64,000 bases of DNA from Protoeuglena noctilucae (GCA_958009085.1 OY253675.1:248001-312000); one strand, 5' to 3'; shown: positions 3,767 through 48,036, counted from the first letter of the stretch. Notes: generated from the sequence alone by a model not told the origin. Translations and numbers: made by a program.

Positions 3767-6700
3767 ATGGCATCCGAGTCCTGGATCAGCTTCGACGACG
3801 ACGGCCACGAGGTAAGGGCTGGCCCTGCGCCCCGCGACGCGCAACCGTCGCTGCGCGGCGCCTCGCAACCCTCGTCGCGGCGTCCTCCTCCGCTTTCCGC
3901 ACGCGCTTCCAAAAGCACCCTTTCCGGAACCGAGCGCGCGCCCGAGCGCCGGTGGTGTCCGCGTCACTGCGAAGCGCATGCGTTGCACCTCCCTTTCGCC
4001 TGCAGCCGCGCCCTCCGCCGGAGCCCCGGGCCCCGCCGATCCCGGAATCCTGGGAACGCCAAGCTCCGGGATGGTTCGCGTCCGCGGACGGGAACGGCAA
4101 CGGCCGGATCGCGGGGCAGGAGGCGGTGGCATTCTTCGCGCGCACCGACCTTCCCCAAGACGTCCTCAGGCGAGCCACCTGGGTCCCATTGGCACCCTCC
4201 GCACGGGCATAGCGAGACGTCACCACTCCGCCCACCCCTCGCCACCCCCGCAGCACGATATGGCGCCTGACGAAGGCCGCGGCCGCGGACCCCGCCACCC
4301 CCGGCCTGGACTACGCTGACTTTCTGCGCTACCTCCGCATGGCCGCGTTGGTGCAGCGGGGCATGGCGCCCGCCGACGCCGCCGACGCCGCGGGGTCGGC
4401 CGCCCCAGGCACCCTGCCACCCCCCCGTTTGCGTGGGCTCACCACCACCGGCGCCCCCGTCGGCGCCCCGACCGCCCCGGGCCACCCCGCGCCCGCCGCA
4501 GCGCCCCGCACCCCGCGCGCGGACGTCCCCGTCTCATCTCCTCCCCAGCCCACGCCTCAGCACACCCGCGTCGCATCGCTCTCGGTCGACCCATCCACAG
4601 GCACCCACTCGCGCCCCTCCACCGCCCCATCGGCCCAGGACGCCCGCGCAACCGCAGTGCCGGGATTTGCGTCCGCCGGCCCCACCCCCCGCGCCACGGC
4701 GCCCTCTGCGTCCATCCCACCCTCGTCGGCCATCCCACCGTCATCGGCCATCCCGCCCTCATCATCGACCCCGCCGCCCCGCCCCCGCCCTCTCCACGTG
4801 AACACCGAAGTCCGCGAGCCCCCCGCCATCGACAGCGGCGACGGGGACGAGGGACTGGCTGCCACGCGATCTCTCACGTCCACCCGGGCCCTCAACCGGA
4901 GCGCGTTTACCTCGGGGCCTGCGAGTGAGTCAGGGGGGTTGCTTTTGTGATGATGGTGTGGGGGTGGATGCTGGGGTAGATGGTTAGCAACTGAGTGTTG
5001 ATTAGACTTAAAGAACAGACACTCGATCTTGTTCCCCTCTGTCACCCCTTACACCCCCCCCTTATCACCCTCCCAACCCCCCCCCCCCAGCCATCTCCAA
5101 AACCCGAACTCCCCCTCTTTCGATGTCTCAGTATTCACGTTATTGCAATCCCCCATCCCACGCAGCCATCTCCAAGACCCGGACCCCTCCCCCCGCGTCG
5201 TCGTCGGCCGTCTACGTTTCTGACGACGTCGTGCCAGCCAAGCCCTACTCCCCCATGCTGCCGGCCCACGGGGTCCTGAGGCCGCCCTTTTCGGAGAGAG
5301 TGACGCGGGGCATGCAGCAGGCGAGGATAGATGGTAGTGGGGGTGTTGATAGCATGGAGTGGTTGCAGCAGGTGAGGATAGCAAGTGGGGGTGGTGTTGA
5401 CAGCATGTGGGGTAGGGAAGTGTTACTACATTCACAAGTCTGTCATCACCTTGCTCCTTACTCCTCACCCTCTTTTACCCCTCCCAACAGGCCTTAGGCA
5501 AGTCCCCCCAGCTGTCACTCCTCCCCAACATAGCTAAAGAACTGATAAAAAACTCTCTCGTTATCTCACCTTATCACTCCTCCTCCCCCCTCAACAGGCC
5601 TTAGGCAAGTCCCCCCAGCTGTCGTGCCTGGCGGCGTGCGAGGGGTGTGTGGTGGCGGGGACGGCTGGCAGCGCATCCATGACCGTCTACGCGGGATTGG
5701 ACGCGGCAGATGGGGCCAAGCCACCCCACACGGATGTGGCCAGGCCGCCGGTGGCGGACGCAGACGCTGCCCCGTGTGGGCACGTCATGCCGCCTGCTCC
5801 CGTGCTGTGCATGTACGCGGATGTGGTGCACGGGTGAGGGAGACGAACTGTGTGGTTGGTTGATAGTATGTATGTAGATGAGGTGTGGATGTGAGGAGTG
5901 TGCATGGTTGGTGTGCGTGACTTGCATTCATGATGAAAGCACGTTGCGACTCCTTTTCGAATATTTAGCCGTATCAATACATAATTATATAACACCCATT
6001 CTCCCCTTTCCTCCCAGTGTCATCTGGGCCGGCTTAGAGGACGGCAAGGTATCGTGCTGGCGTGCGGATGCGGCCATGGGCACCGTGCATCTGATACGCA
6101 CCTGGGAGGCATTCAAGAGGGGGGGGGTGTGCAGGTGAGAGATGTGATAGATGTGCATCTGATGGGTGTGCAGGTGAGAAGCCTTCTTACCATCATGGTT
6201 GGCCGCCGCATCGTCACCCCCTCGCCCCATCAAGTTGAATATCGATAGCAATGTGTTAGTATTCCTTTGTCTCCCCAGCATTTCCACCGTGGGCTCCGAC
6301 GGTCGCCGCCTCGTCACCGGCTCCACCTGGGGAGAGCTGCGACTTTGGTCCGCCCCCATTGGCACCGACCCACTCCACGCCAGCCCCACTCCCGCCAACA
6401 ACGCCACTGTCGCCAACACCGCCACTATCGGCGCGGGATATGGCAGCGCGGGGTATGGCAATCCAAACAGCAGCGGTGCGACGGGGGTGGGTGCGGTGGG
6501 TATGGGTGCCATGCCTCCCGGCCCGCCCCTCTACGCCACTGCTACCGCCACCCCCGGCAACGCAAATTCGATTATAAATTCGAATTCGAATTTTGCGGGA
6601 TTGCTGGCGCCCGCCCCCGCGGCCATCGACCTGAAGATGGCCTACGGGGCCCTGCCTCATGATGTGGTGCGCAATGTGGCGGTGCCGAGATGTGGGGGGG

Positions 6701-9700
6701 TGGTGTGGTCGGGGGGGAAGCACAACGCGGCGCTGTGGGACGCGGCGACGGGTGAGTGGATGATAAATGCGAGTGAGTGGATGATAAATGCGAATGGGGG
6801 AAGGAGCGCTTGGCATGGGTTTCGCAACTGGCGATGCTATTAGCTGCTGTTGGGTTGTTGTATGGCAGGCGTGGGTAGCATGATACGCTCGATCATCATG
6901 ATTGATAGTAACGATACTAAAAGTATGTTATATGATAACATGTTTGTGATATGCAAAAACTCTCTTTCCCAACAACACCCCATCTCTCCCTCACTAACCC
7001 CCAGGCCTGTTGCTGGGCACGATATCTCAAGCGGACCCCCCACCCCCCCACGGCGTGGATGTCTCGGTGGGTCTGCCCTTGGATGCTCTGGGAAGAATCG
7101 TTCCGAATCTCTCTCCCGGATTCGGGGCGCTGGAGAGCCAGGAGAGAGACAGGCTGCAGGACATCAAGGCCGTGAGGGCCCGGGTGAGCATGCAGGGGTA
7201 ATATGGATATCGGAGATATCGGAGATATGGACTATCGAGAATTTGCGATGATGGTATATGAATTGTAATTGACAAAGAGTGGCACTGATTCATTTCATAT
7301 TTACTTCGAACTTTTTGTTGATAATTTATGGTACTTGTAATGAATTTTGTAAATTACTGTTAAATTTTATGATTATACTTGCATCATAGTAATACTTTAA
7401 TACTACTTATTATCCTCCCCTTTCCTCAACCCCCCCAGGTGGTGGCGTTCGGCAAGGGCCTGCTGAAGCGCACCAAAGAGACGTTCCGCGGCTCCGGCGG
7501 CCCCACCCCCACGGCCCGGCAGAGAGCGGGGGCGGGGTTCGCTGTGCCCGGTCGCTTTTCATTGGGGGAGCTGGTGGTGATGGAGGCGGTGGGGGTGGAC
7601 TGCGTGTGGGTGGGGTACCGGGGGGGGTCGATTCAGGCGAGTGATTACAGTAATACTTGTAATAGTAATACTATTACTTTTACTAGTATAATTGATGGTG
7701 GTGATGGAGGCGGTGGGAATCCCGGTCGTGCTAAGAACCCTCTCACTGTGTATATACAGTACATGCTTACCAGCAAACTCCACTCCTCCACCCCCACTCA
7801 GATCTTCATGGTGCACGGCCAGCTCCAGTCCCACTCTTCCAATCCACAATCTATATAATCCTATCCTTGATATAATTGATATAATTGTAATTGTACGCTG
7901 ATTACCACCCACTCCTCACCCCCACTCAGATCTTCACCGCCCACGGCCAGCTCCAGTCCCACGCCTCCGTGCTCCTCCCCGACCCCACATCCATCGCCGA
8001 GATATGCGGATGCGTGTGGGTGGGGCAGGCGAACGGCACAGTCACCGTCATGGGGCTGGACGGCAGTGCAGCGGCGTCTTTCACGGCACACGGGGCGCCC
8101 GTGGTGGGGATGTGCCAGGTCGGGCCCATGGTGAGCATTTGACAATATTAATAACATTGTTATTATGATACTTATGTAAAAGTTATGACAGCTTATTGTG
8201 TCTTTCACGGCGCATGGGGCGCCGGTGGTGGGGATGTGCCAGGTCGGGCCCATGGTGAGCGACGGCGTGGTTATTATGATTGCTGTTGTTAATTACCTAC
8301 TGTTGATGGACATTGATAGCGACGTTCACGGATGTGCCAAGTCGGGCCCACGGTGAGCGAGCGAGCGAGCGACTGCATGGTTGTAATTGTTGCTTCATTG
8401 GGTGTAATATAATTATGATTCCAGTAATTATCATATATTACAGTAAAACTATAAAATTCACTCATTCGCGTGCGCCTCGCTCTCTCTCACCCCCCCTGCA
8501 GTGCGTGACGGGTGCAGCGGACGGCTGCATTGCCGCCTGGCCCGCGGCCCTGGGGCGGCCCTCCCTTCTCCCCGATAACAGCGGTAGCGATACCAGTAAT
8601 TGCAATTCCAATGCCAACAGCGCCCACGACGCGTCCATCGCCGTGGATTTGCTGCAATTGGAGGACGGGACGCCCCGGGTGAGTTGTGCGATATTACATG
8701 ATGATACTATTATCATTATTTTATGATGATATAAATATGTTATATTGCTCTATACTATAATACCTGATGTGAAAGTGACTAAGTGGGAGAGGTTGTGTAG
8801 GATTGACGGGTATGCTCGCTCTCACCTACCACCCCACCCCACCCCCCGCAGCCCCCCCCACCCATCCGCCCCTCCCCTCCCTCCCCTCCCCCCGGCCCCC
8901 GCACCGTGAGTGCCCTCCGCGATGCCTGGGCAGACGCTGTCATGCGTCAGTGCATGGGCAACGCGGAGCTGAGCGTGCTGATTGGAACGTGGAACGTGGC
9001 CGAGAAGAAACCGGACTCGGAATCCGTGCAGGCGAGTCGATATTCGTTACTTTTGTAGTTATTTTATAAAATTATTGATAATCACTTTACATGATGATAA
9101 CAGTTAGACCTGGTGATACTAATGGTATTTACAGTCACCATAACAATCCATTATCACTATCAACGCGCACCCCGCAGGCCTGGCTTAGCCCGCGATCGTC
9201 GGGCGCGGACGTGGTGATTGCCGGTCTGCAGGAAACGCAGATGGGCAGCGGTGCCGTCGCTCTGTCCACAGCCATGGAGATGCTGCGGTGAGGCACGAGG
9301 ATGGATAATGGGGATAAGTACGGTAATCATATAATTTATATGATTATTTATATAATTTATTATTATTACATGTGGTGAGCGTATCAACGACCCTTGCACA
9401 CCCCATGGACGCCTCGTCACGCCACGCTCGGTCAAATATGGATACCATATTATGATACTAGGACTATGATATAAGTATGTCAGTTACATCAACAAACACC
9501 CTTTTCCCTTCTCTTTAACCCCCCCCCGCAGCACCAAAGCGGGCGAGCAGGGCAGCGTGGTGGCACAGGAGTGGTGTGCAATCGTCCATGCATCTCTAGA
9601 CACCGGCACCCACGGCCCCTGGGCCCGCGTCGCTTTGCGGCAACTGGGAGGGATCGTGCTGTGCGTTTTCGTGAGGCAGAAGTGGGCGGGCTTGGTCAGC

Positions 9701-12700
9701 AGGGTCGAGACAGCTGCGACGGGGGTGGGCGTGATGGGGGTGGGGGCGAACAAGGGGGCGGTGGCCATTCGGTTCGAGATACTCAGGCGGACGGTGTGCT
9801 GCGTCTGTGCGCACTTCAGCGCCCACCAGGTGAGACGGGTGGTGGGGGGTGTTGGGGTGGGAGTGGGGTGGTAGTGAGGGTGGGGGTGGGGGTGGTAGTG
9901 AGGGTGGGGGTGGGGGTGGCAGAGGGGGTCGCAGTGGGGGTGGCAGTAAGGGTAGCGAGAGTGTCAGTGTGAATGCAATACTATTCAAATTTATCGATTG
10001 ACATATATCAGTATCACTCCCCTCTCTTACAGACCCAGTGGGACAAGCGCAACCAGGATTATGCAACCCTCATGCACCTCACGCGCTTCCACCACGTTTT
10101 GGGCATCGGGGCGGGTATGCCCACAGCACAAAACGCACTGGTGGCGCAGAGGCAGGTCGATCCGCCTGTGGACGACGACTCTTTGGCTGGGAAGCTGGCA
10201 GAGGGGGGTGGGGGTGGTGGTGGGGGTGGTGGGGTGGCGAGTGGAGTGGCGAGTGGGGTTGGTGGGGGTGTGGGTATGGGAAGTGGTGGTGTGGGTGGGG
10301 CGATGAGTGGGGGCACGGCAGGTGGAGCAATGAGTGGGGGAGGTGGGAGTGCGGTGGTGGCCCAGCCGAGTTTCCTGGCGGGGGCGGCGGTGCCGGCGCA
10401 ACAGGTGGGGATCGGGAGGGGTGTGGGTGGGTGGCGCATGGGTGTGGCTTGCTGGGTTTGCTGAGCCATGCATGCTTTCTCATCTTCAATCACGTCCATA
10501 TCTATCACCCCCACTCATCTCCATGTCTATCATTGTTATCTTTTTTGTTATCCATAATCCCCCATTCCAATTTTATCCAATCCAATTCCCCATCTCTCCC
10601 CAGGGTTCCGTCCCTGCCCCCGTGGCCCAGGCCCTCTCGCGTGCCCAGGGCGTGCGTGATGCGGATATCGTGCTGTGGTGCGGGGATTTGAATTACCGAG
10701 TGGACGTTTCATACGAAGAGGCCATGGAGGCTCTGAGGGCTGGGGATATGAGGAGGCTGATGGCCAACGACCAGCTGAGGGGGCAGATGACGGCGGGGAG
10801 CGTGTTCCAGGTGACAAGCAGTACTATTACTATTACTATTACTAGTACTATTACCATTACTTTTATTATTACTACTATTATTACTGTCACTATGACTATT
10901 GCTATCGCTACTAACCCAAATTACCGCTCATCTCACCCCCAGGGCTTCCAGGAGCCCCCCCTGACGTTCCCCCCCACGTACAAGTTCGACAAGAACGTGG
11001 CTGGTTTACTGGCATACGACTCGAGCGAGAAGAGGAGGGTGCCCGCTTGGACCGACCGCGTGCTGTGGAGCGCCACGGCTGCCGACCCGGCCATGGCGGT
11101 CAGGTGAGGGGGGTGATGAGTGGATAATAGTTGGTGCGTAGTATGTGCATGGCTGGGATGTTCAGTCTTCCCTCACTGCCACCCCCACTGCTACCCTATC
11201 ACCACCCCCGCTGCCACCCTCACCCTCACCCACCCCCTTCCCACCTCTCAGGGTCACCTGCAAGTCCTACAGCAGCGTCCCCTCTCTCTCACTCACTCCC
11301 ACCCACTCACCCACTCACCCCTCACCCCTCTCAGGGTCACCTGAAAGTCCTACAGCAGCGTGCACTCTCTCTCACACCCCTCACTGCACCCTCACCCACC
11401 CCCTCTCTCACACCCACCCATTCACCCATTCACCCCCACCCATCCCCCCCCAGAGTCACCTGCAAGTCCTACAGCAGCGTGCCCGACGTCATCGCTTCCG
11501 ACCACAAGCCCGTCTACGCCACCCTATCGCTGACCATGCCCCACGTGGACTTAAGGAGGCAGTCCGCGGCGTTCGCTGCGATATCCAGGCCGCTCTGGCA
11601 CCCCTGTCAGGCGCCGCCAGAACTGACGGTGGCGCCAGAGTCGGTGGTTCTGGCGGCGGCGGCCGAGGGGAGGGCGCTGCAGATCAGGCGAGGATTTGGG
11701 GGTTGGGGGGGAAGGGGGGGAGAAGAGTGGTAAATGAAATGGTGTGCATGTCTTGTTTTTGTCTGCCTGACAGAAACATATATCTTTTACATCACTGTTA
11801 CCAACGGGCATATGGACCATACAGTCAAATCATCAGAAGCATATAGCAATATTACTGTTACTATCAATTAGCAATATTAACCATCATCCATCTTCTCTTC
11901 ATCCCAACCCCAGGAACGCCTCCCCCCAGAGCGTGCGATTTTCCGTCGAGCTCATCCCCGACGACGGTCGAACCAACGCATCCACTTCCACGGTCCCGTC
12001 ATCGATATCGTCGATATCATCTACATCTTTATCCCAATCTCATCCCTCCGACTGGCTGGACGTGTGGCCGGAGGGTGGGGTGACGGGGCCGGGGGAGGAG
12101 GCGCTGGTGATGGTGGCGTACGTGGAGAGGCCGCAGGGGCACAGGTGAGGGCGATACTGTTCATGTACATTTTTGATGTACATTGTTGATATTCATCGGA
12201 TTGTATGATTGTATGTCCATACTGCTGGGGGCCGGGAGAGGGAGGCGCTGCCCACTCCCACTGCCACCCCCACTCCCACTCCCACTCCCACTCCCACTCC
12301 CACCCCACCCCACTCCCACTCCCTCACCCCCAGGCGCACCTGCCGCATCCGCATCACTGCGTTTGGCATCTATGCTGGCGCCTGCCCATCCCAGTCATCT
12401 GCAAGGGTGGTGGAGGTGGCAGTCACGGAGCCGCCTGCCATGGGGCCGGGGCAGGCCAGGCTCTACAGCAGAGACATGGGTGAGGGAGATGAGATGGGGG
12501 TTGGTGGGGGTGGGGTTTAGTGGGGGTGGGGGGTGAGAGGGAGGAGATGGTGGGGGTGGGGCAGGCTCTACAGCAGGGACATGGGTGAGGGAGTGGTCTC
12601 TATGATGAAGATGATAGCGGGAGTGATCTCACTATGATCAAGAGGAGAGAGTAAAGAGAAAAGATGGTAAAGATGTATGGCAGCCTTTGCGAACTGACCG

Positions 12701-13231
12701 CCCCTCACCCTCCACCTCTCACCCACCCCACCCCACCTCACCCAACCCCACTCACCCACCACCCCCACCACCCCCGCAGCCTACGCCCCATCTCCCGAAT
12801 CCATGGGCCTGCACCCCAACCCCGACCCATCCAACCCCGCCCCGCCGCCCGCCTACCAAGACGCGGTGGCGACCCACACGGGTTCAATCCCCGCCAACCA
12901 CCAGCACCCCCATTTCGGGCCTTACCCCCTCCCGCCCCACGCCCCGTCGCCCCACGCTGCAGCCGGTGTGGTGCAAACACACCACCAGGGTGGTTGGGTG
13001 CCCTTTGCTAACGATGAGGCATCGCCACCCACGCATGCCCGGCATGCCGCCCAAGCCCCGACAGCAGGCGCGGGTGCGGGCGGGGGTGCGAGTGGTAGTG
13101 GGGGTGGCGTGGTTGCGCAGAGCTTCGCGCAGCAGAGGGGCGGTGCGGGTGGCAGTGGGAGTGTGGGTGGGAGTGGGAGTGGGAGTGGGGCGAGTGCCAA
13201 GGGCATCACGGAGGACCTTTTGCAGCTGTGA
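3767..13231 (+). CDS. Inositol polyphosphate 5-phosphatase with N-terminal EH (EF-hand) domain, WD40-like repeats, IPPc catalytic domain and C-terminal Ig/MSP-like region (plant FRA3/5PTase12-14 type); about 20 exons
   Basis: Catalytic motifs: WNVAEK (8985), GLQE (9223), [10 protein letters not shown]...CAHFSAHQ (9747-9829), [10 protein letters not shown] (10676), PTYKFDK...[18 protein letters not shown] (10973-11068), SDHKPV (11497). EH-like [34 protein letters not shown] (4070-4168). WD-like [26 protein letters not shown] and [12 protein letters not shown]. Ends ITEDLLQL* at 13231. Confidence 0.88.
10821..10910. repeat. (TAT/TAC)n AT-rich microsatellite in a 5-phosphatase intron
   Basis: gtactattactattactattactagtactattaccattacttttattattactactattattact. 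Confidence 0.8.
12255..12320. repeat. (CCCACT)n hexamer repeat at the 3' end of a 5-phosphatase intron
   Basis: cccactcccactgccacccccactcccactcccactcccactcccactccc just upstream of the acceptor at about 12333. Confidence 0.8.
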
Positions 13232-13976
13232 CGTGACGGAATGACGATAGTTGTACTCTTGTTATGCAGCCCTGGTTGAAAGGGACGATGTAACGCTACT
13301 GAAACGATCTGGGGGTGATACTGTGGATTGTGATTAGATGGGATTACACATCACCCAGTGTAACTGTTGCCTTTGCTTTTGCTTGGATGGCAGTGCTACA
13401 CATGACTCTACAAGCCGCAACTTCAACCACACAGGTGTGGCAAGCGCACGGCTAGGGTATCGGCAATCGCAAGTCACGCATCCAAGAGAGCAGGGCAGAG
13501 TGGTGGTGGTGCTGGTGCAAGGGGGATCACGGGATCACAGTAAAAGGCGTGACGTTGTTACCAAAGAAGGAAAGACAACGAGGCGTGAAACGAGGCAAGC
13601 GTGGCATTCATGCACGCAGGGTACCAACAGCATCGCGATGGGAAAGTGACTAGCTGTGGAACTGAGAACTAGTCACACTGGCAGTGGGCTAGTCATATTA
13701 TGGATGTCCACTAGCCGCACTGGCCGTGGGCTAGTCACTCCGTCGCAAGTCACACGGGGCGGGCAGGGGCAACGGATGGGTCGTTGATGATAGGAATCCC
13801 ATTTGAGGAATCCCTCACAGCGCTCTTGCCCAGTAGGATGATGATGGCGATATTATGGCACGAGCTCATCTCATGCCGCCATCCACAAGGGCGTCCCGTG
13901 CGCACGTGCCCCACCGCACCCTTATCGGCGTCCCATGCGATCACGCTGATGATACCATCGTCAGCATCACACGCTC

Positions 13977-16432
13977 TCACGCCGCCATGAGCAGCGTGAG
14001 GGCGAGGACGGCGCAGAGGATCGCGGCCCTGGGGATGGCCGCCAGGCTCTTCATGTTGTCCGCGCTGGTGGACGAAGCCCCCATCGACACGGTCGGGTCC
14101 CAGGTGAAGGACTGCGGGGAGGGGGAGGGTGGGAACGTGGGGCGTAAGTGGATAAGTGGGGTGTTATGGGTTGTTTTGCGATGGAACAACACGATTGGGA
14201 CTATCACATAAATGACCCGTACATATGACGGTCATGGACTGCCACGAGAGACCATCTTTGGACTGCAATGGGTCTGCTGGGTCTGTCAGTCACACGCTCC
14301 CTCACCTTGTTGAAGTAGGGCACGGTGAGCGTCACCACCAACTCAGCGCTGTTGGCGCTCATCCCCTCCACGCTGCCGCTGAGCCTCCTCGACGCCACAC
14401 CACTCCCATTCCCACTCCAATGCGCAGAGGCACTGTCATGAGCAGACGCACTGGCGTTGCCATTAGCAGACGCATTGCCATTGGCGCGGCTGGTCTCGTT
14501 GATGGCCACGTCAACGTTCGCGCAGTCATACGTCGTGGTCTCTGCACCCTGGCTATCCTGCGTAGTCACGTAAGCGCACGTCTCGAAGTCCACCGATGCC
14601 TGCTGCGTGGCGCCGGAGCCCAGGGAGAGGTTGACGCGCTTGGCGGGGGTCTGGCGGGCGCCGGCAGGGGCGGGGGTGGAGGTGGCGGTGGCGTTGGTTG
14701 AGGACGAGGCGCCCACGGGGCCGCGGCGGGGGGGGCAGGGGTCCTGCGAACGAGGGGTGGGGTGAGGTGTAGGTGGTGGGATGAGGAGATGTGGGTGGTG
14801 GTGAGGACGAGAGCGTGGTGGGATGGGCGATGCAATGTGATGCTCTGGGGCGTGCTGGTGCGTCACAACAACTGGCCCCCATTCTCAGCGCTGATCTCGC
14901 TGCAGTCTGGCTGCCGGCATCACACGATCCCTGCCCCCGTGCACGCTCGCCTGGTCGGTGCAGTCTCGGACGTCGTACCAGTGGGTGCTGTTGGTGTTGC
15001 CCGACTGCTGCACTTGCACGCGCAAGTCAAGAAGAAGCCTGTTCTGGGCGGAGCAGAAGGGCCAGCCCGTGACCTGGAGGCCGAACTGCGGGGGAGGGTG
15101 GCGGCGGGGCGGGTGTTGGTGGGCGCGAGGTGGGTACTGTCAAGTGCGCGATTACTCCTTCAGCCGGTCGCGATCGCCCCCACATATTTCCTGCCAAGCC
15201 TCCATACAACCTGTCCATCCACCACCGCCACCCCTCCTCCACCTTCACTAAGTTTACATGACCAAGGTACCCAGCTCCTACCAATACAAGCACTTGGTTG
15301 CATGATAGCGCTAGTGCTCACCTTGACGGAGTCCTTCCCGACCTGCGTCACCCCCGTGGCATTGGCACTGGCAGCGACACTGGCACTGGCACTCCCGCTG
15401 GCACTGCCGCCGGCGCTGGCGCTGGCCGTGGCGTTGACGGAGAGGGACGTGGAGGCGCAGGTGGCAGAGCAGAGGTTGGCGGACAGCGGAAGGCACGGTC
15501 CCGAGCCCGTGCAGTTGGGGATCATGAGGCTGATGTCGCTGGGGCAGTTATCCGGCACCGAGCACTGCATGTGGTCCTGGGCCGCGAAGTCGACGGCCTT
15601 GCTGAACACGAACGCGTGCATGTCGAGGCGCTGGGCGTTGGGGTCCATGACGACGGTTCCGTTCCCGGCGAGTGAGGAGGAGGAGGGGCACGCCGACAGC
15701 GACGCGGCGGAGAGGGGGAAGCCGAAGAAGAGCTCCAGGGGCTGCGGGGAGGGGGCGGGAGGGACTGTGAGTTGTGGGCGCATAGCTAGGGAGGTACTAG
15801 GAAGCGGTGCATTGCATGGGGAAAGATGACGGCACGTGGTGTCATCGCCGGTGTGGCTGTCTCACCTGGGCCGTGACGTTGGCGGCGGCGGAGATGACCG
15901 GGGACGCCACGGCAAACTGCATGCTGTTGGATTCCGAGAGATTGGTCACGGACCGACCGGCGACGACGTTGCCGCTGGAATCGACCTCGGAGATGCTGTT
16001 GAGGCGGATGTCGACGTGGCCGACGCCCTCATCCGTGCTGTCGAGGAAGACGCGCAGGTGAGGCTTGTGGCCGATGGATCGCACGCGCAGCAGGCCGTCG
16101 TCGGACGTAAACGTCGCGTTGGCCTGCGTCGGAGCGAGACATTGCAGCAGGTCTTGAAACCAGGAGTAGAACGCAGCGTGGAATGATGAGCAGTAAGCAG
16201 CCGATGGCGGACGCGAGCGGCCGCGAGGGCCGCGGACGGGTGGGGCAAGCCCTCAACGCACGATTGAGGCACCTCGACAGGGACGGGTGCAGCATCTTCG
16301 CACCTGGCCGCTGGCAGAGAGCGGGCCTCCCGCGGAGAAAAGGCTCGTGGACGAAGCGGCCCCATCGGCGAGGGCCAGCCTCGCGACGAGGGCTGTGCAA
16401 GCAAGGGCGAGCCCCAGGGTCCTCGACATCAT
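13977..16432 (-). CDS. Secreted, probably GPI-anchored protein resembling the coral skeletal aspartic acid-rich protein (SAARP/CARP4) family
   Basis: Signal peptide MSRTLGLALACTALVARLALA. Motifs VDIRLNSISEVDSSGNVV, LDMHAFVF, VGKDSVK|FGLQVTGWPFCS, LLLDLRVQV and VPYFNK|SFTWDPTVSMG. Hydrophobic C-terminal tail AAILCAVLALTLLMAA*. Many N-x-S/T sites. The family assignment is from recalled motif order, not a search. Confidence 0.65.
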
Positions 16433-16875: not shown

Positions 16876-19800
16876 TCACGCGTTTTGCATCTTGCTGAGG
16901 TTGGCATAGGCACCGTTCCGCGCCATCAGCTGACTGCGGGCGCAGAGGAAAGGCCGACCGCGTCGCAAAGCATCTGCAACACAGTTACGCCATCCTCGCA
17001 CCCGAGGGCGCGCTCAACAAGCATCCAAGACATCCTTCGGCGGTTTCCTCACCCGTGCGTGCCCTCCTCGACCATCACGCCGTCCTGCACGACGGCAATC
17101 TTGTCCGCGCCCACGATCGTGCTCAGCCGGTGCGCGATGACGATGGTGGTGCGCCCGCCGACCAGGCGGTCGATGGCGTCCTGCACGACGCGCTCCGACT
17201 TGGTGTCGAGCGCCGACGTCGCCTCGTCCAGCAGCAGGATGCGCGGGTTGCGCAGCACGGCACGCGCGATGGCGATGCGCTGCTTCTGCCCGCCCGACAG
17301 CTGCGTGCCGCGCTCCCCGACCTCCGTGTCGAGGCCCTGGGGCTGCTGGCTGATGAACTCCTGCGCGCAGAAGCGACACGGCGACCTCAGCAGTCAGCTC
17401 CACGGCACAAAGCCCACCCTTGTGAGGAGACGTGCAAGTGTTCACTCATACCAACCCCTCACCCATGCGTTAGCGGCCTTGGCGGCGGCGATGGTCTCCT
17501 CCTCCGTCGCGTCCTCCCTGCCAAAGAGGATGTTCTGGCGGATGGTGGTGGCAAACAGCGTCGGCTCCTGCGCCACCAGGCCCGTTTGGCTGCGCAGCCA
17601 CTGCAGGTTGAGCGACCGCAGGTCACGCCCGTCCAAAGTGACCATGCCAGCGGCCGGATCATAGTACCTGTGGGTGAGAGCGACACGGTGGGAGTGATGT
17701 GTCAGGCTTGGCATAGGAGTAGCCTCACAGCGGTGGCAGCTCATCGCAAGACGCCTCCCACCACCTCCCAGCCTCTCACCTGAGCACGAGGGCCACGACG
17801 GTGGACTTGCCCGACCCCGACTGCCCCACCATGGCCGTTTGCTTGCCGGCGGGGATGACTAGGCTGAAGTTGTTGAACACCTTGACGTGGGGCCGGGTGG
17901 GGTAGCTGAAGTCCACGTTCCGGAGCACGATCTCGCCACGGACCTGCGGATAGTCAGAAACATCCCGCTCGCTGCCACGAGTGACTCCGCCGAGCCGGGC
18001 GCCCACCCCGCCGCCATAGCGCGTCCCGAGAACCCGGTACCGCCAATTCGTCAAACAAAGACGATGGAATCGACCATACGCATCCGGTCGCATCCGCCGA
18101 CACCATGCCAAGCTCCTCTCCGCCCCTCTCACCTCGTCTGGCTGCTCCCCGGTCGGGTCGTAGGACTGGATGGGCGGGCTGCGGTCGATGGTGGAGAAGA
18201 TGCGCTGCACGGCGCCACGGCTCTTGGCGACGTCCGGGAAGCCGAGCATGGCCTGCATGAGGCCCACGTTGGCGAGGAGCACGGCAAAGAAGGATCGGAA
18301 CACATTGGAGATGGTGATCTCGCCCTTGGAGAGGAGCTTGCCGGCCCACCACCAGGAGAGGGCGTAGAAGAGGAAGAGCACGGCGTGGGAGTAGCCCCAG
18401 GCGAGGCCGACGATGAGAGACTTCTTCATGGCCGCCCGCGTGGGGCCCTCGGTGTACCTGGGGGGCGAATGGGGGTCGTCAGGGTGGGGGTACGAGGCAT
18501 TGGGCATGGGGCAGGGAGGGCACGGGGGACGGGAGGGGCGCGGCGTGACAGCGTGAGGTGATTGCGACATGAACAAGCATGCAAAAGAATGCAGAGCGCG
18601 TGACATTCCTTTGTACAACAGGTCAACCGCACATGCTGTCCATGGCTCACCTCTTGTACAGGTCGACGAGGACGGTGTCGAGGGAGAAGGCGGCGATGAT
18701 GCGGATGTTGCCGAATGCGTCCATGGCCACGCTGTTGGCCTTGGCAAACATCTCCGAGGCGCTGCCGCCCAAGCCAGTCCTGCGAGGCCGCGTGAGATAG
18801 CGTGTTGGGGCAACTAGGGGCGTCAGTCGACAACTCTGTCGAGAACCTGTGATCAGGTGCCAGGATCAGGGGCCTCGGGCTGCGCTTAGGGTGCAGGGCA
18901 CCTGTGTGTTGACGATAGTGACGGTGACAACTGCGGTGCTCATGGCATGGCTCGTTCCCACCTGAAGAACATGCCGCGGATGACGAAGCTGGACGCCACG
19001 AGCGGCACGCAGGCGATCATGACCAGGGCCAGCTTCCAGCCGAAGTAGAGGGCCAGACCCCAGCTGGCGCCCATGACGACCATGTTCTGTAAAATGAGGC
19101 CCGCCTGGTCGCCCACAGCACCCTTGACGTACCCTGCGGAGAGAGACATGGAAGAGTCTCTGCTCGCTTGGGTGCCAGACCAGCTGACCCGTCAGGACCG
19201 ACACTGGCGGCAGCGCTCCTCCCGCTCACCCGTGTCGCGGCCCAGCGCAGCCACCAGCGCCCCCGAGTTGTTCTCTGCGCGGTCGAAAAAGGCCACCTCC
19301 TGGCCCAGCACGGCCCTGCAATCGAGTCGGAAGCATGCCGCATTCTCCCATGCGAGCTCTTGCACAGATGCCGGCGAAGCGAAAGAGCCCAAACTCACTT
19401 GAAGTAGGCGAGCTTGAGGCGGTAGGCGAGCTGCTGTCCCATGTAGAAGAAGGACGCCTGCTGGATAGTGATGCTGGTGATGGCAATCTGCGAAGACCGA
19501 CCACCGGCGGTTCGTCAGCTCAGCGACCTTTTCGTTCACTGTTGCAAGCCGCTCTTTCTCTGCGTCTCCGTACCAGAGAAAGGATGAAGATGACGAGGCC
19601 CCAGTACGCCGTGCGCTCCTTCACGACGTGCTTGTTCGGGTTGTACAAGTCACCCAGCACCGTGCCCAGCATGTACGAGAACGACGGCATCAGCGCACCC
19701 GCGACCAGCGTGAAGAGGATGCCGATGGCGAAGATCGGGAGCTCCGGGCGGTTCAGCTGGAGGAGGCGGCTGCAGTGGCAAAAACGCAGACCGTGACGAG

Positions 19801-22800
19801 GCGTCTGCTGCAGCTGTGCAGCCGGCGGTGGAGCGGCTCCCATGTGCATCCGCGTTTGCTTTATCCTTACCCGAACGAGACCTTGACCTTGTCCGGGGTC
19901 GCGGCCTTGGTCTCCTGCTCACGGGATGCCGCATCGCCTGCGACGCAGAAAAACGCGCCTTTATCAGCCAAGCTCGCTTACCAAACCAACCAAGCAATAC
20001 GATTTACAAACGATACGCATAAAAATGACGCAGGATGGTTGCTATGGTTGCTGTCCTCCCCTCAAGTGCCATAGCCTGCCCGCCTGCTCACCAGAGTTGA
20101 CCTCCGTTGGCGCAGCGTGGCTTGTCTCGGTCTTGAACATGCCCGTGAAGCCTCCCTGCGGCGAAAGGGCGCGAGGCAATTATTCAATTTCTGCATTCCC
20201 ACGCATTCCAACATTTTTTGTTCTCACTGGCAATCGCCACTAGTAATGCTTACACACCTGCGACTTCTTCTTCGCCTCCTCCTCCGCCTTCTTCTGCAGC
20301 GCCACCAGCTCCCCGTACACCGACCCGTACGTCCCCGCCAGCTCCTCGTGCGTGCCCTCCTCCACCAGCCACCCCTCTTGCATCACCGCGATCTTGTCCG
20401 CGTTCTTGATCGTGCTGCGGACGAGCAGAGCGACGGCGGACCCCGGTCGCGCCAGGCAACCTCGAGCGAGGGCTGTGACCGAGCGCTGGTAGCCGCTGCT
20501 CCCGCCCCTGCTCGCCTCAGCCGGTGCGCGATGACGAGGGTCGTGCGTCCGGACGTCATCAGCTGCTCCAGCGCCTCCTGCACTTGCCGCTCCGACTTGG
20601 TGTCAAGCGCCGACGTCGCCTCGTCCAGCAGAAGGATGGGCGGGTTGCGCAGCACGGCGCGCGCGATGGCGATGCGCTGCTTCTGCCCGCCCGACAGCTG
20701 CGTCCCGCGCTCCCCGACCTGTGCAGATGCGCGCAAAGGTGCCACTGAAGCCCCGTCCACGCTTGCCGCCACCCGCACCATCTATGCACATCTCCTCCAC
20801 CCTCCCACCCAGCTCACCTGCGTGTCGTACCCATCCGGCAGCTTCATGATGAAGTCGTGCGCGTTCGCCGCCTTAGCTGCCTCCTCCACCTGCTGCTGCG
20901 ACGCGCCCTCCCGGCCATACATGATGTTCTCGCGGATGGTGGTCGCGAAAAGCGCCGGCTCCTGCGCCACCAGACCCATCTGCGCAGGGCGAGGGCGGCC
21001 GACGTCTGTCACGCTTCCGCCACACCCAATGCTGCACATGCCGAGCACAGCACAGCACCGTGCCACTCGCCACCCAGCCCAGCACTGCCACGCCCCACCC
21101 GCCGCTCCGTCGGCTCGCCTGCGACCTCAGCCACCGCAGCTGCAGGTTCCGGATGTCCACGCCGTCCAGGTACACCCCGCCGTCCAGCACGTCGTACCAC
21201 CGCATGACGAGCGCCACCACGGTCGACTTGCCGCTGCCGCTGCCGCCCACCAGGGCCAGCGTCTTGCCCGGCTCGGCGCGGAGGCTCAGCGAGCGGAACA
21301 CCGTCACATCGGGCCGCGCAGGGTAGTGGAAGGCGACGTTGCGCAGCACGATCTCCCCGCGCACGGACGAGAGGGTGTCGCCGGGGGTGTCGGGGTCAAT
21401 CTCGATCTTTCTGCGCGTGCAAAGAACCGCAGCAGGTTCACAGTCATACCATGACGCGCGCTCCCACGCGATGCGCCTCCTCCGTCGCAGGTGCCATCCA
21501 GATGCGCTGGCGAGAGCGACAGTCCAGCTTGCCCACCTGTCGATGGTCCCGAACACGCGGGCTCCCGCGACCTGAGCGCCCTTGAAGTACTTGATGTACG
21601 GGGCGGCGTTACCAAGGGAGAAGCTGCAAGGTGCCCAAAGGGTGCTTGGATGAAGCGCTCTGCAAAGCAAGTGCTACTCGCAGCAGTTGTGGACGGTGGC
21701 GGTCAGCTCACCCTCCGATCATCGTCGCGAACATGATGTTGATGATGTCACCGCCCGTCCTGTTGCCGTTGTAGACCCGCAGCCCGCCCCAGTAGAAGCA
21801 GAGGGCGTACGTCGCGAAGATGCTGCGGAAACGAGGGCAGGGAATTCGTAAATAGAAAGCACCTTGGTTTACACCAAAACTGCATCTTTGCTTGCGTAAA
21901 TGATTTTCGGAGGTCCGAGCTCTTTGAAGGTCAACTGCACCTCAGCGAACCCAGCTGCACCACCCAGAGAGCCTCACCAGAACTGGAACATGCCCAGCGA
22001 CGCTCCCGTGCCGAACGCCAGGGGCGGCACAACCGCCTTGACGCTCGTGAGCAGGTTCGAGTACCGCGAGTGCTGCTTGTCCTCGCCACCGTACGCCGCC
22101 ACGATCCTGCGACGCAGGCCAGGGCCACTGTTTCTCGACAAGGCGAGAGAGGAAGTAGCGCCAAACAAGCACATAGATTTGCCAACAGCACTTGCATCTA
22201 CCAGTTCGAATGACGCCGACGCGTAGGCAGTGACAAAAAGCAAGGCGCCCAGATACACACCTGATGTTGGCGAAGGACTCCTGGGCGACGGCGTTGGCGC
22301 CCGAGTAGGCCTTCTCGGTGCTGCGGCGGAGCCACTCCATGGTCTTGGCGGAGAGGAAGCCGGCGAGGATGAGCGCGGGCCACGCCGATAACAGCACGAT
22401 GAAGATGTCCCAGGCGCGCCAGAAGCCGATGACGACGGCGGCGATGGCGGCCGACACGTTGTGGATGAAGGTCGCGATTTTGTCGTCCATGCCCTCCTGG
22501 ATGGCGGCTGCGCGTTGAAGGGACGGGCGACCCGGGGCAGTGAGCGACGTTGGACCAGAGTGCAACGGTTTGATGCCAAACACACATTTGTGGCCTCTCA
22601 CCCGTGTCGTCGTTGAGGGTGGAGAGGAGCCCGCCCGAGGTCGCCTGGGTGTCAAAGAAGCCCACCTCCTGGCGCATCACGGCCTTGAGGTACTTCTCGC
22701 GGATGATGTTGCTCTGGCGGACGCCCACGTACATCCAGCAGGACATCTCCAAGAAGGCAGCGGCGGCAGAGCAGCCGGCCAGGATGACGAAGTAGATGAT

Positions 22801-43145: not shown

Positions 43146-48036
<4,891 letters not shown>

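What the first reader, a model, noticed from the sequence alone, without database searches (positions are those of the whole stretch)
4925..12780. Two intron classes with a 5'-to-3' switch inside genes
Seen: in the 5-phosphatase, CDC48, the 57-kb gene and DGAT1, introns within about 1-1.5 kb of the start are short and CpG-rich. Later introns are longer, CpG-poor and polarised: G-runs after the donor (e.g. 9836-9950), an AT-rich TAT/GAT centre, and CCCCAC/CTCAC tracts before the acceptor. The switch falls near 4925, 46860 (-), 57990 (-) and 60960. The 7-kb ABCB genes never switch. Inference: gene-body DNA methylation or transcription-coupled mutagenesis in constitutively expressed genes. The complementary G-rich and C-rich ends could also fold to juxtapose splice sites or form G-quadruplexes/R-loops that promote the echo duplications.
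Basis: partly seen in the sequence, partly recalled or inferred. Interest (0 to 1): 0.7.

Follow-up and report, generated by a model that had tools for sequence, protein, structure and literature searches.

The report
Two intron types split by promoter distance
In this marine alga, introns near gene starts are short and GC-rich, while introns further along several genes are longer, G-rich at one end, C-rich at the other and hold copied splice junctions; this is a sharp form of a known 5'-to-3' gene gradient and may show how introns grow.

Summary
In five genes, introns starting within 1.1 kb of the start codon are never polarised (0 of 14). Beyond that, 25 of 38 are.

The 36 distal introns have a median length of 219.5 nt against 119 nt. 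GC skew runs from +0.70 to -0.70 along each one. Thirteen of the 36 hold copies of the flanking exon edge plus splice site; none of the 97 others does.

- **CpG loss is weaker than it looks.** G and C sit at opposite intron ends, so GpC is low too. With local composition controlled, CpG is 0.74 of expectation, and TpG/CpA show no excess.
- **Exons barely change.** GC3 falls from 0.90 to 0.84.
- **Skew reverses inside each intron.** That argues against transcription-coupled mutagenesis.
- **Intron type tracks distance to the nearest gene start.** The ABCB pair is the exception.

My reading is promoter-centred GC maintenance, probably biased gene conversion. Away from it, non-coding DNA drifts AT-rich, introns grow by junction-spanning duplications, and G-run and C-run splicing signals persist. 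Bridging of intron ends is plausible only in silico.

The parts
3767..13231 (+). g1: gene for an EH-like N-terminus, a beta-propeller and an inositol polyphosphate 5-phosphatase. It has 21 exons and 20 introns, and the spliced reading frame is open for 1666 aa.
   Evidence: Pfam Exo_endo_phos2 and Beta-prop_IP5PC_F match successive exons. The junction 10810|10943 joins profile positions 217 and 218. The translation is open. RNA contigs confirm four introns and two exons.
3812..4253 (+). The two promoter-proximal introns of g1 (3812-4005 and 4170-4253). GC is 0.72-0.73, CpG o/e 0.82-1.37, and there is no G-to-C polarity.
4925..12779 (+). The 18 distal-type introns of g1: 4925-5165, 5321-5597, 5834-6017, 6135-6278, 6752-7004, 7184-7438, 7637-7929, 8131-8501, 8679-8851, 9032-9177, 9288-9531, 9830-10038, 10405-10603, 10811-10942, 11104-11453, 11688-11913, 12145-12333, 12480-12779. 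The switch is at 4925.
   Evidence: Feature table. RNA joints for the four introns 10811-10942, 11104-11453, 11688-11913 and 12480-12779.
9837..9953 (+). G-run array just after the donor of intron 9830-10038. Periods are 6, 12 and 24 (GGGTGG and similar), and donor-like GTGAGGG units recur in it.
   Evidence: TRF; sequence; G4 motifs at 9837-9868 and 9902-9940.
11225..11375 (+). An 83-nt tandem unit made of a C-rich tract, CAG and a copy of the next exon's start. These acceptor echoes (11253-11282 and 11336-11363) lie inside intron 11104-11453, and the last acceptor is the one used.
   Evidence: TRF; echo alignments; RNA joint 11104-11453 in 3 runs.
8200..8350 (+). Two donor echoes (8200-8254 and 8330-8350). 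Each is a copy of the end of exon 7930-8130 followed by GTGAGC, 124 and 222 nt after the real donor.
   Evidence: sequence.
12553..12584 (+). Donor echo followed by GTGAGG inside intron 12480-12779. The upstream donor is the one used.
   Evidence: RNA joint in 3 runs.
5091..7840 (+). Further g1 echoes: 5091-5115 and 5491-5516 (acceptor echoes), 7696-7717 (copy of an upstream exon segment) and 7802-7840 (acceptor echo).
43146..47404 (-). CDC48. Proximal-type introns are 47050-47143 and the transitional 46677-46875. Distal-type introns are 46005-46261, 45502-45677, 45120-45357, 44692-44957, 44239-44451, 43750-43929 and 43281-43491. Echoes lie at 45279-45325, 44875-44914, 44769-44792, 44358-44386 and 43421-43441. 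The first coding exon and the start (about 48055) are uncertain.
   Evidence: Pfam; the model aligns as a single HSP with intronless homologues; echoes were mis-called as 42-nt and 18-nt exons that would duplicate peptide.
56737..58671 (-). g57, a membrane-protein gene. Introns 58541-58624 and 58312-58416 are proximal type, 57959-58221 and 57575-57772 are transitional, and 57204-57442 (echo at 57387-57403) and 56737-57005 are distal type. The last is a weak model with odd splice sites.
59410..64000 (+). DGAT1 (PH domain plus MBOAT), which runs off the window. Introns 1-5 are proximal type. The switch is at 60962. Distal introns are 60962-61149, 61231-61608, 61819-62185, 62546-62650, 62789-62963 and 63131-63317. 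Echoes lie at 61418-61440, 61514-61532 and 61988-62038. The last intron carries (CACCT)28 at 63858-64000.
   Evidence: Pfam.
13460..16432 (-). g2, a secreted-like gene convergent with g1. Introns 16124-16303 and 15742-15865 are proximal type. Introns 15086-15321, 14744-14950 (GC-AG) and 14112-14305 are weakly distal type (C-rich 3' ends, CpG o/e 0.67-0.70, no echoes).
   Evidence: RNA contig pieces 13460-14111, 14306-14742 and 15322-15741.
16876..31066 (-). Tandem ABCB_1 (16876-23231) and ABCB_2 (24113-31066). They have 48 modelled introns, none of distal type (1 of 48 polar), even beyond 3.5 kb from any start. Four intron pairs are 99-100% identical between the two copies.
   Evidence: Pfam; RNA joints for ABCB_1 16934-19870.

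Best explanation
The window holds two states of non-coding DNA.

Shown:
- Within about 1.1-1.8 kb of a gene start, and through some whole genes, introns are short, GC-rich and CpG-rich and lack polarity.
- Farther from any modelled start, in the distal parts of g1, g2, CDC48, g57 and DGAT1, introns and the g1/g2 UTR spacer are lower in GC and longer.
- These distal introns are almost free of C next to the donor and almost free of G next to the acceptor.
- A third of them carry intact pseudo-splice sites with copied exon edges.
- A sixth gene, the unmodelled g53, shows only a fall in raw CpG o/e, and none of its introns were measured.

Inferred:
1. A promoter-centred process keeps DNA GC- and CpG-rich. 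GC-biased gene conversion at promoter-proximal recombination sites is the most likely candidate. Away from it, unconstrained sites drift toward an AT-richer equilibrium of about 0.4 GC. Synonymous sites are largely held by codon selection.
2. In that distal state introns grow by tandem duplications whose copies lie 56-220 nt from the real splice site and span the junction. Such duplications are harmless because the outermost splice site stays in use. They seed arrays of donor-like G-rich units and of branch-site-like and acceptor-like CTCAC/CCCAC units.
3. The G-runs and C-runs are kept because they mark, and possibly bridge by base pairing, the ends of these longer, AT-richer introns.
For: Position.
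- For non-ABCB introns, the distal-type fraction rises with distance to the nearest modelled start: 0 of 34 below 1.2 kb, 6 of 16 at 1.2-1.8 kb, 7 of 10 at 1.8-2.5 kb, 6 of 8 at 2.5-3.5 kb and 17 of 17 beyond 3.5 kb. The correlation of distance with GC is rho -0.66, p 9e-12.
- All five switch points fall between the last proximal-type intron at 403-1180 nt and the first distal-type intron at 1111-1794 nt from an ATG.
- Two GC-rich zones of about 3.5 kb straddle the divergent promoters RPL14/g1 and g57/DGAT1.
- Two distal domains lie between convergent genes, g1/g2 and g53/g57.

Regional substitution bias.
- Echo copies differ from their exon source at 41 of 549 sites. GC-to-AT changes are 23 of 368 and AT-to-GC 7 of 181, which gives an equilibrium GC of about 0.38. 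That is close to the GC of distal intron cores.
- Distal exons show a small shift in the same direction (GC3 0.843 against 0.898).

ABCB exception. The only long genes that stay GC-rich are tandem paralogues with four introns 99-100% identical, meaning ongoing conversion between them.

Duplication growth.
- 13 of 36 distal introns against 0 of 97 others hold echoes (Fisher 6e-9).
- 8 of 10 donor echoes keep GT or GC, and 7 of 8 acceptor echoes keep AG.
- RNA contigs from 3 runs use the outermost sites in the two introns shown.
- Extra GTGAG occurs in 5' halves (19 against 11.5 +/- 3.5) and CTCAC in 3' halves (33 against 12.8 +/- 3.6).

Splicing signals.
- 15 of 36 distal introns against 4 of 97 others have 3 or more GGG in the first 40 nt and 3 or more CCC in the last 40 nt.
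- Predicted bridging pairs are 20 against 9.5, with z -1.59 against +0.05.

Known precedents. These include G-triplet and C-triplet introns and AC/GT bridging introns (PMC4691745, passages), G-rich and C-rich intronic enhancers (PMC2481429, passages) and steep 5'-3' GC gradients in GC-rich plant genomes, where the abstract names GC-biased gene conversion as a factor in external gene regions (PMC4684703, abstract).
Against: - No recombination, polymorphism or methylation data were available, so the agent behind the promoter effect is inferred.
- Exon GC3 hardly changes (CDC48 stays at 0.84-1.00 in its distal part). The explanation therefore needs strong codon selection in every gene.
- Two stretches do not fit a pure distance rule. 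ABCB introns beyond 1.8 kb are 0 of 27 distal type. The region 39-43 kb has weak coding signal yet stays GC-rich with CpG o/e about 1.
- g0 introns 1-2 are more than 2.8 kb from a modelled start and are proximal type, though g0's own start lies outside the window.
- Bridging is as strong in composition-preserving shuffles (20.2), and GGG and CCC loads are uncorrelated per intron (rho 0.22, p 0.19).
- MFE per nt is weaker in distal introns than in proximal ones (-0.28 against -0.34).
- In human LCAT intron 4 the stem was not needed for splicing (PMC2481429).
- Only 12 shuffles per intron were run.
- The distal set was defined after seeing the data, and everything rests on one 64-kb window.
Confidence: 0.4

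Rival explanations
1. Methylation outside promoter islands. DNA far from promoters is cytosine-methylated, while promoter zones and some whole genes are protected. Deamination then lowers CpG and GC in the distal domains.
For: - There is a real CpG deficit in polar introns after local control (0.74 against 1.01).
- Distal exons show a deficit in all three codon contexts (0.80, 0.87 and 0.84 against 1.34, 1.04 and 0.98).
- In echoes, CpG sites changed at 14 of 97 against 19 of 271 other G/C sites (Fisher p 0.037).
- The dependence on promoter distance also fits unmethylated islands.
Against: - TpG and CpA show no excess relative to proximal introns.
- CpG transitions are only about 1.7-fold those at other G/C sites (6 of 97 against 10 of 271).
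- Some AT-rich stretches show no raw CpG deficit (the window 9001-9500, mostly intron, has o/e 1.27).
- Most of the raw deficit comes from G/C segregation, since GpC o/e is 0.68 too.
- CpG decay cannot produce the sign-reversing skew, the echoes or the CCCAG acceptors.
- The long, transcribed ABCB genes are unaffected.
- CpG spacing showed no nucleosome-scale periodicity, though that test was inconclusive.
Confidence: 0.2
2. Selection on promoter-proximal introns. Introns within about 1 kb of the start are kept short and CG-rich because they boost expression, as in intron-mediated enhancement in plants, or because they suit early co-transcriptional splicing. Distal introns are simply unconstrained.
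For: - There is a sharp dependence on distance from the start.
- The two types have different acceptor consensus. CGCAG is found in 65 of 97 proximal-type introns and CCCAG in 16 of 36 distal ones.
- Proximal 5-mers are CG-rich, such as GCGCG and CGCGC.
- That proximal and distal introns differ in composition in plants is recalled from the intron-mediated-enhancement literature. I did not read it here.
Against: - ABCB, g48 and DPH keep the proximal type far beyond 1 kb from their own start.
- The g1/g2 UTR spacer also drops in GC, and exons shift slightly. Both point to a regional cause, not an intron-specific one.
Confidence: 0.15
3. The distal introns are recent insertions of a mobile intron-generating element (introners) with G-rich and C-rich terminal inverted repeats. 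The echoes would be its target-site duplications.
For: - The G-rich 5' and C-rich 3' ends are reverse complements at the motif level (GGGTG/CACCC, GTGGG/CCCAC).
- The organism is marine. That introners are common in such algae is recalled; I saw the Huff, Zilberman and Roy 2016 paper only as a reference entry.
Against: - All-against-all BLAST of 133 introns finds no shared family, only low-complexity G and C tracts.
- Echoes lie inside the intron, 56-220 nt from the real site, and carry their own splice site. They do not flank an insert.
- Exon-derived echoes are 92.5% identical to the exon, while the spacers between them are much more diverged.
Confidence: 0.05
4. Transcription-coupled mutagenesis or repair asymmetry in the gene body produces the skews.
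For: The skews follow the transcript orientation on both strands: g1 and DGAT1 on the plus strand, CDC48, g57 and g2 on the minus strand.
Against: - A strand-asymmetric process gives one sign along the whole transcription unit. Here GC skew goes from +0.70 to -0.70 within each intron.
- AT skew is about 0.
- The 5' parts and the ABCB genes are transcribed but unaffected.
Confidence: 0.03

Closest known systems
5'-to-3' GC gradients and step changes at introns in GC-rich plant genomes such as rice. [quoted passage not shown] 2015, PMC4684703, abstract read). Related titles were seen only in the listing.
   Same: The 5' part is GC-rich and GC is lower further 3'. Changes occur stepwise at introns. 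Some genes stay GC-rich throughout, so genes are bimodal.
   Different: Here the coding GC3 hardly moves (0.90 to 0.84) while intron GC falls by up to 40 points. The distal introns also gain polarity, arrays and echoes, none of which is part of the plant pattern as described in that abstract.
Structured 'bridging' introns: (AC)m-(GT)n introns of zebrafish and (GGG)m-(CCC)n introns of human (Lin et al. 2016, PMC4691745, abstract and passages read).
   Same: Complementary simple repeats lie within tens of nt of the two splice sites. G triplets follow the donor and C triplets precede the acceptor. Predicted structures are more stable than shuffles.
   Different: No per-intron co-occurrence signal was found here (rho 0.22). 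Bridging follows from composition alone. Nothing is known of U2AF dependence. The restriction to promoter-distal introns is not reported in the passages I read.
G-rich and C-rich intronic splicing enhancers that compensate for weak polypyrimidine tracts (Murray et al. 2008, PMC2481429, passages read).
   Same: GGG and CCC motifs lie inside short GC-rich introns close to the splice sites.
   Different: In that work the two motif types were interchangeable and the stem was not needed. Here the two types are strictly segregated, with C at only 0.08-0.15 near the donor and G at 0.07-0.13 near the acceptor.
Human F7 intron 7 minisatellite, whose first unit spans the exon-intron boundary and gives silent 5' pseudo-sites (PMC1557585, abstract read).
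   Same: A repeat unit spans the junction. The pseudo-sites have an intact consensus, and the most upstream donor is used.
   Different: Here it is not one locus but 13 of 36 distal introns. It occurs at acceptors as well as donors, usually with 1-2 extra copies whose spacers have diverged.

Membership tests
(GGG)m-(CCC)n / (AC)m-(GT)n bridging introns (Lin et al. 2016) | Complementary repeats close to both splice sites (3 or more GGG in the first 40 nt and 3 or more CCC in the last 40 nt) | tested here: met
   15 of 36 distal introns against 4 of 97 others.
(GGG)m-(CCC)n / (AC)m-(GT)n bridging introns (Lin et al. 2016) | The two repeats co-occur in the same intron more than independence predicts | tested here: inconclusive
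   GGG load against CCC load per distal intron: Spearman 0.22, p 0.19, n = 36.
(GGG)m-(CCC)n / (AC)m-(GT)n bridging introns (Lin et al. 2016) | Predicted bridging structure is more stable than shuffled controls | tested here: met
   Median z is -1.59 against +0.05 (MWU 5e-6), with 20 bridging pairs against 11.6 in full shuffles. Shuffles that preserve each third give 20.2, so the effect comes from composition. Only 12 shuffles were run.
(GGG)m-(CCC)n / (AC)m-(GT)n bridging introns (Lin et al. 2016) | Repeats required for correct splicing, and splicing independent of U2AF2 | not testable with these tools
   This needs minigenes or splicing extracts.
Introners (transposon-derived introns) | Many introns share one sequence family | tested here: not met
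   BLAST of 133 introns against each other finds only low-complexity G and C matches. This covers the window only.
Introners (transposon-derived introns) | Short target-site duplication flanking the inserted element | tested here: not met
   Echoes are 17-55 nt long, lie inside the intron 56-220 nt from the real site and carry their own splice site.
Gene-body or outside-island CpG methylation signature | CpG deficit with matching TpG/CpA excess, independent of base composition | tested here: not met
   CpG is 0.74 of local expectation, but TpG (1.33) and CpA (1.33) match those of unaffected introns (1.36, 1.32).
Gene-body or outside-island CpG methylation signature | Measured 5-methylcytosine over the CpG-poor domain | not testable with these tools
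   No methylation data could be reached.
gBGC-driven 5'-3' GC gradient | GC of neutral sites falls with distance from the recombination-prone 5' end | tested here: met
   Intron GC against distance to the nearest start: rho -0.66, p 9e-12 for non-ABCB introns and rho -0.31, p 0.03 for ABCB.
gBGC-driven 5'-3' GC gradient | GC3 of coding sequence follows the same gradient | tested here: inconclusive
   GC3 is 0.898 in proximal against 0.843 in distal exons of switching genes. There is no drop in CDC48 or DGAT1.
gBGC-driven 5'-3' GC gradient | AT-to-GC fixation bias and recombination hotspots at promoters | not testable with these tools
   This needs polymorphism data or crosses.
Junction-spanning minisatellite (F7 IVS7 type) | Repeat unit spans the exon-intron boundary and pseudo-sites keep the consensus | tested here: met
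   8 of 10 donor echoes are followed by GT or GC at the homologous place, and 7 of 8 acceptor echoes are preceded by AG.
Junction-spanning minisatellite (F7 IVS7 type) | Only the outermost site is used | tested here: met
   RNA contigs of 3 runs join 12479|12780 and 11103|11454 across the echoes. Only these two echo-bearing introns appeared in the truncated joint table.

The most novel reading that the evidence does not exclude
Distal introns may be a distinct, self-renewing intron architecture.
- Tandem duplications that span the splice junction would keep producing arrays of donor-like G units and branch-site-like or acceptor-like C units.
- The complementarity of these arrays would bridge the splice sites, giving structure-assisted splicing that arose independently of the fish AC/GT introns.
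- A promoter-anchored chromatin or recombination boundary at about 1.1-1.8 kb would decide where in a gene this architecture can exist.
Probability: 0.15. Interest if true: 0.8.

Novelty: new variant of a known kind. Interest (0 to 1): 0.55.

Why it matters
Three points would matter if the pattern holds genome-wide.
- **A clean natural system.** One gene would carry two intron architectures side by side, with a boundary set by distance from the promoter. That would let regional mutation or conversion regimes be separated from splicing constraints.
- **Intron growth caught in the act.** The echoes show introns growing by duplications that span the splice junction. They also give dozens of natural tests of how the spliceosome chooses among identical sites.
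- **A practical warning for annotation.** My own gene finder turned echoes into false micro-exons that duplicate peptide segments (CDC48 45279-45320 and 44358-44375; DGAT1 61961-62038).

Tried and rejected
- **Whole genome.** None is held for this window, so no genome-wide test was possible.
- **Relatives.** The one metagenome scan, with a CDC48 exon, gave 80 loci, the best at 94% amino-acid identity over that exon. None is the same species. GC-rich hits are intronless or have a single intron. The intron-bearing low-GC hits (L001, L002, L011) have introns 1 and 3 codons away from window introns 5 and 7, not at the same sites. The age of the distal introns therefore stays open.
- **Introner family.** Rejected.
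- **CpG periodicity at nucleosome scale.** The autocorrelation shows no clear peak in either domain. The result is dominated by detrending and exon-intron alternation, so it is inconclusive.
- **Lineage.** One Atlas look-up with a DGAT1 exon returned only generic MBOAT clusters. The lineage was not determined. A green-lineage origin is only a guess, resting on my recollection that beta-propeller 5-phosphatases (Pfam Beta-prop_IP5PC_F) and PH-DGAT1 are typical of plants and green algae.
- **Expression level.** The contig depths cannot rank genes, so 'constitutively expressed' was not tested.
- **Earlier notes of this scan.** Nothing relevant was found.
- **Literature.** Searches found no description of this two-class pattern in an alga. 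Passages of the Pelagomonas genome paper (PMC9481584) say nothing about it. These searches cover only the held open-access library.
- **Region 37-43 kb.** Only one good coding segment was found (38410-38967, plus strand). I could not show that CDC48 has a convergent neighbour.
- **Technical failures.** A script error was fixed.

Full report
**What the window is.** The window is 64% GC with a whole-window CpG o/e of 0.94. No whole genome is held for it. Public runs that hold the stretch are labelled as one cultured organism and as marine metagenomes and metatranscriptomes. DNA-type runs hold 0.84-0.99 of the sampled words of 3700-13300, so the introns with their repeats are not an artefact of a single assembly.

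**Genes found.** Pfam hits on long ORFs and my own HMM gene finder give the following genes.

| Gene | Strand | Span |
|---|---|---|
| g0 | + | 3' part, to 2369 |
| RPL14 | - | 2598-3281 |
| g1 (EH-like, beta-propeller, inositol 5-phosphatase) | + | 3767-13231 |
| g2 | - | 13460-16432 |
| ABCB_1 | - | 16876-23231 |
| ABCB_2 | - | 24113-31066 |
| Diphthamide synthase (DPH) | - | 31624-33629 |
| g34 | - | 34727-37051 |
| CDC48 | - | 43146 to about 48055 |
| g48 | - | 48276-52083 |
| g53 (low-complexity) | + | 53516 to about 56490 |
| g57 | - | about 56700-58671 |
| DGAT1 (PH plus MBOAT) | + | 59410 to past the window end |

**Checks on the gene models.**
- Metatranscriptome contigs confirm four g1 introns, two long g1 exons, both RPL14 introns and many ABCB_1 introns. 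The joint table was truncated, with 26 joints not shown.
- The spliced g1 frame is open for 1666 aa. Its exons match successive parts of the phosphatase profile, with an exact 217|218 join at 10810|10943.
- My CDC48 model aligns as a single HSP with intronless homologues.
- The remaining introns are predictions. The gene finder had two intron states built in, so every class statement below rests on measured features, not on its labels.

**The observation.** The 36 introns I assigned to the distal type are g1 introns 3-20, CDC48 4-10, g57 5-6, DGAT1 6-11 and g2 3-5. I chose this set after seeing the table. Searches give these contrasts with the 97 other introns:
- Median length is 219.5 against 119 nt.
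- GC is 0.52 against 0.63.
- Raw CpG o/e is 0.43 against 0.95.
- GC skew falls steadily from +0.70 in the first decile to -0.70 in the last. In the other introns it goes from +0.36 to -0.25.
- The signal is as much avoidance as enrichment. C is only 0.08-0.15 of bases in the 5' third, and G only 0.07-0.13 in the 3' third.
- The acceptor is CCCAG in 16 of 36 distal introns and 3 of 97 others. CGCAG is found in 11 of 36 and 65 of 97.

With an objective polarity cut-off of 0.9, switching genes have 0 of 14 polar introns within 1.1 kb of the ATG and 25 of 38 beyond (Fisher 1.4e-5). Other genes have 0 of 19 and 2 of 56. The last proximal-type and first distal-type introns start at these distances from the ATG:

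| Gene | Last proximal type | First distal type |
|---|---|---|
| g1 | 403 nt | 1158 nt |
| CDC48 | 1180 nt | 1794 nt |
| g57 | 899 nt | 1229 nt |
| DGAT1 | 1169 nt | 1552 nt |
| g2 | 567 nt | 1111 nt |

Of the 48 ABCB introns, none is of the distal type.

**Qualifications to the observation.**
- Six of the 14 proximal introns in switching genes are 170 nt or longer.
- Only 16 of 36 distal introns have a centre below 0.5 GC.
- Raw CpG poverty is confounded, as the next section shows.

**CpG and methylation.**
- GpC o/e is low in distal introns too (0.68 against 1.26), because G and C sit at opposite ends.
- I shuffled within 10-nt blocks to hold local composition. CpG is then 0.74 of expectation in polar introns (173 against 234 +/- 11) and 1.01 in the rest.
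- TpG and CpA are equally over-represented in both classes (1.33 and 1.33 against 1.36 and 1.32). The deficit is real but modest, and the expected deamination products are missing.
- Exons change little. GC3 is 0.898 in the proximal and 0.843 in the distal exons of switching genes, and 0.903 in non-switching genes beyond 1.2 kb.
- CpG o/e at codon positions 3-1 is 0.98, 0.84 and 0.91 for those three groups.
- CDC48 keeps GC3 at 0.84-1.00 throughout.
- There is therefore a small regional shift in coding DNA and a very large one in non-coding DNA.

**Transcription-coupled asymmetry.** The skews follow transcript orientation on both strands, but they reverse sign within every distal intron, and AT skew is about 0. 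A strand-biased mutational process acting on the whole transcription unit cannot produce that.

**Echoes.** I aligned the 60 nt of exon on each side of every intron (plus 8 nt of the intron) to the intron interior. The null was the same flank aligned against introns of other genes.
- Strong copies turn up in 13 introns, all of the distal type: 13 of 36 against 0 of 97 (Fisher 6e-9).
- Eighteen echo segments cover 549 aligned nt with 41 mismatches.
- Eight of 10 donor echoes are followed by GT or GC at the homologous place, and 7 of 8 acceptor echoes are preceded by AG. They lie 56-220 nt from the real site.
- RNA contigs of three runs join across the echoes in introns 11104-11453 and 12480-12779. 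They use the last acceptor and the first donor.
- The gene finder mistook several echoes for micro-exons that would duplicate peptide. CDC48 would read ...[24 protein letters not shown]... and ...SAPCVL SAPCVL.... Homologues carry one copy.
- The exon-derived parts are far better conserved than the AT-rich spacers between copies. I cannot explain this. Fast slippage in the spacers and conversion from the exon are both possible.

**Substitution direction in the echoes.** Taking the exon as the ancestral state, GC-to-AT changes are 23 of 368 and AT-to-GC 7 of 181. That gives an equilibrium GC of about 0.38. CpG sites changed at 14 of 97 against 19 of 271 other G/C sites (p 0.037), but CpG transitions are only 6 of 97 against 10 of 271.

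**Motifs and folding.**
- The commonest 5-mers next to the donor (GGGGT, GGGTG, GTGGG, GGTGG) are reverse complements of those next to the acceptor (ACCCC, CACCC, CCCAC, CCACC).
- CTCAC is enriched in the 3' halves of both classes: 33 against 12.8 +/- 3.6 in distal introns and 18 against 7.9 +/- 2.6 in the others. It is probably the branch-site word.
- Extra GTGAG is mildly enriched in distal 5' halves (19 against 11.5 +/- 3.5).
- Fifteen of 36 distal and 4 of 97 other introns have 3 or more GGG in the first 40 nt and 3 or more CCC in the last 40 nt. This is the criterion used for human G-triplet and C-triplet introns in PMC4691745.
- Among introns of 100 nt or more, RNA folding gives a median z of -1.59 for 36 distal and +0.05 for 64 other introns. 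Predicted pairs between the first and last 35% number 20 against 9.5.
- Against a specific structure: shuffles that keep each third's composition bridge equally well (20.2). GGG and CCC loads are uncorrelated per intron (rho 0.22, p 0.19). Energy per nt is weaker in distal introns (-0.28 against -0.34). Only 12 shuffles were run.
- Canonical G4 motifs sit at relative position 0.07-0.13 in most of the 10 of 36 distal introns that have one. Only 1 of 97 others has one.
- There is no shared repeat family among distal introns.

**What sets the position.**
- I measured distance to the nearest modelled start codon of any gene, not just the gene's own. The distal-type fraction of non-ABCB introns is then 0 of 34 below 1.2 kb, 6 of 16, 7 of 10, 6 of 8 and 17 of 17 beyond 3.5 kb. 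The correlation of distance with GC is rho -0.66.
- This explains why DPH, g34 and g48 never switch. They are short, and their 3' ends abut the next promoter.
- Two GC-rich zones of about 3.5 kb straddle the divergent promoters RPL14/g1 and g57/DGAT1. Two distal domains lie between convergent genes, g1/g2 and g53/g57.

**Exceptions to the distance rule.**
- The ABCB pair has 0 of 27 distal-type introns beyond 1.8 kb, with only a weak GC decline (rho -0.31). Its two copies share four introns at 99-100% identity, which indicates ongoing conversion between them.
- The stretch 39-43 kb has little coding signal yet stays GC-rich.
- g0 introns 1-2 are also proximal type although far from any modelled start. 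g0's own start is outside the window.

**Reading.** I think a promoter-centred process keeps DNA GC- and CpG-rich. Away from it, unconstrained sites drift toward about 0.4 GC, introns lengthen through junction-spanning duplications, and G-run and C-run signals are retained or amplified at intron ends.
- GC-biased gene conversion at promoter-proximal recombination sites is the best candidate for the first step. It predicts a distance effect from any promoter, a small GC3 shift in the same direction and GC-rich tandem paralogues that convert each other.
- It is also a factor offered for the similar, milder gradients of GC-rich plant genomes (PMC4684703, abstract).
- Protection from methylation is the main rival and cannot be excluded without methylation data.
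- The polarity is best read as a splicing feature, with precedent in G-rich and C-rich intronic enhancers (PMC2481429) and in bridging introns (PMC4691745).
- The use of the outermost of several identical sites has a precedent in human F7 intron 7 (PMC1557585, abstract).
- All mechanistic steps are inferred. What is shown is the anatomy, its statistics within one window and RNA use of the outer sites in two introns.

**Novelty.** My searches of the held library turned up the component phenomena, but no description of this combination in an alga. The lineage of the organism was not established.

Noticed in passing
window 20415-21070 vs 27876-28531, and 17361-17462 vs 24574-24675: The tandem ABCB_1 and ABCB_2 genes share four introns at 99-100% identity, while other intron pairs have diverged. 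This points to recent gene conversion between the two copies.
   Followed up: partly
whole window; examples 11688-11913, 14744-14950, 5321-5597: GC-AG introns are unusually common: 17 of 133 modelled introns, mostly with the donor GCGAG. One (11688-11913) is confirmed by RNA contigs, and a second (14744-14950) is supported by the length of an RNA contig.
   Followed up: partly
window 53372-56487 (+): Long open frames encode a Gly/Lys/Ser/Ala-rich low-complexity protein with 21-, 36- and 57-nt repeats and strong G skew. It looks like a plus-strand gene convergent with g57. The gene finder could not model it.
   Followed up: partly
window 39000-43100: About 4 kb of GC-rich DNA (0.62-0.74) with CpG o/e about 1. 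It has long ORFs on both strands, almost no coding signal and no Pfam hit. Its nature is unknown, and it does not fit the distance rule.
   Followed up: partly
window 63858-64000: A perfect (CACCT)28 microsatellite, the reverse complement of AGGTG, in the last DGAT1 intron. It runs off the window.
   Followed up: no
window 17074-17242: One contig of run X10 differs from the window at 28 positions plus 4 indels within 170 nt of an ABCB_1 exon. It may come from another strain or another paralogue.
   Followed up: no
window 47405-48073 (-): The start of CDC48 is unresolved. The conserved N-terminus begins just after an acceptor at 47404, and the model needs a 582-nt first intron and a short first exon near 48055.
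   Followed up: partly
window 756-1444 (+): Two introns of g0 (756-897 and 1327-1444) show partial distal-type features: a G-rich 5' end with a 17-nt repeat and CpG o/e of 0.41-0.61. g0 converges on RPL14.
   Followed up: no
window 8131-8501 and 5321-5371: Some echoes keep the reading frame (75 nt and 51 nt), so use of the inner donor would insert 25 or 17 residues instead of breaking the frame. Which donor is used at these two sites was not visible in the truncated RNA table.
   Followed up: no
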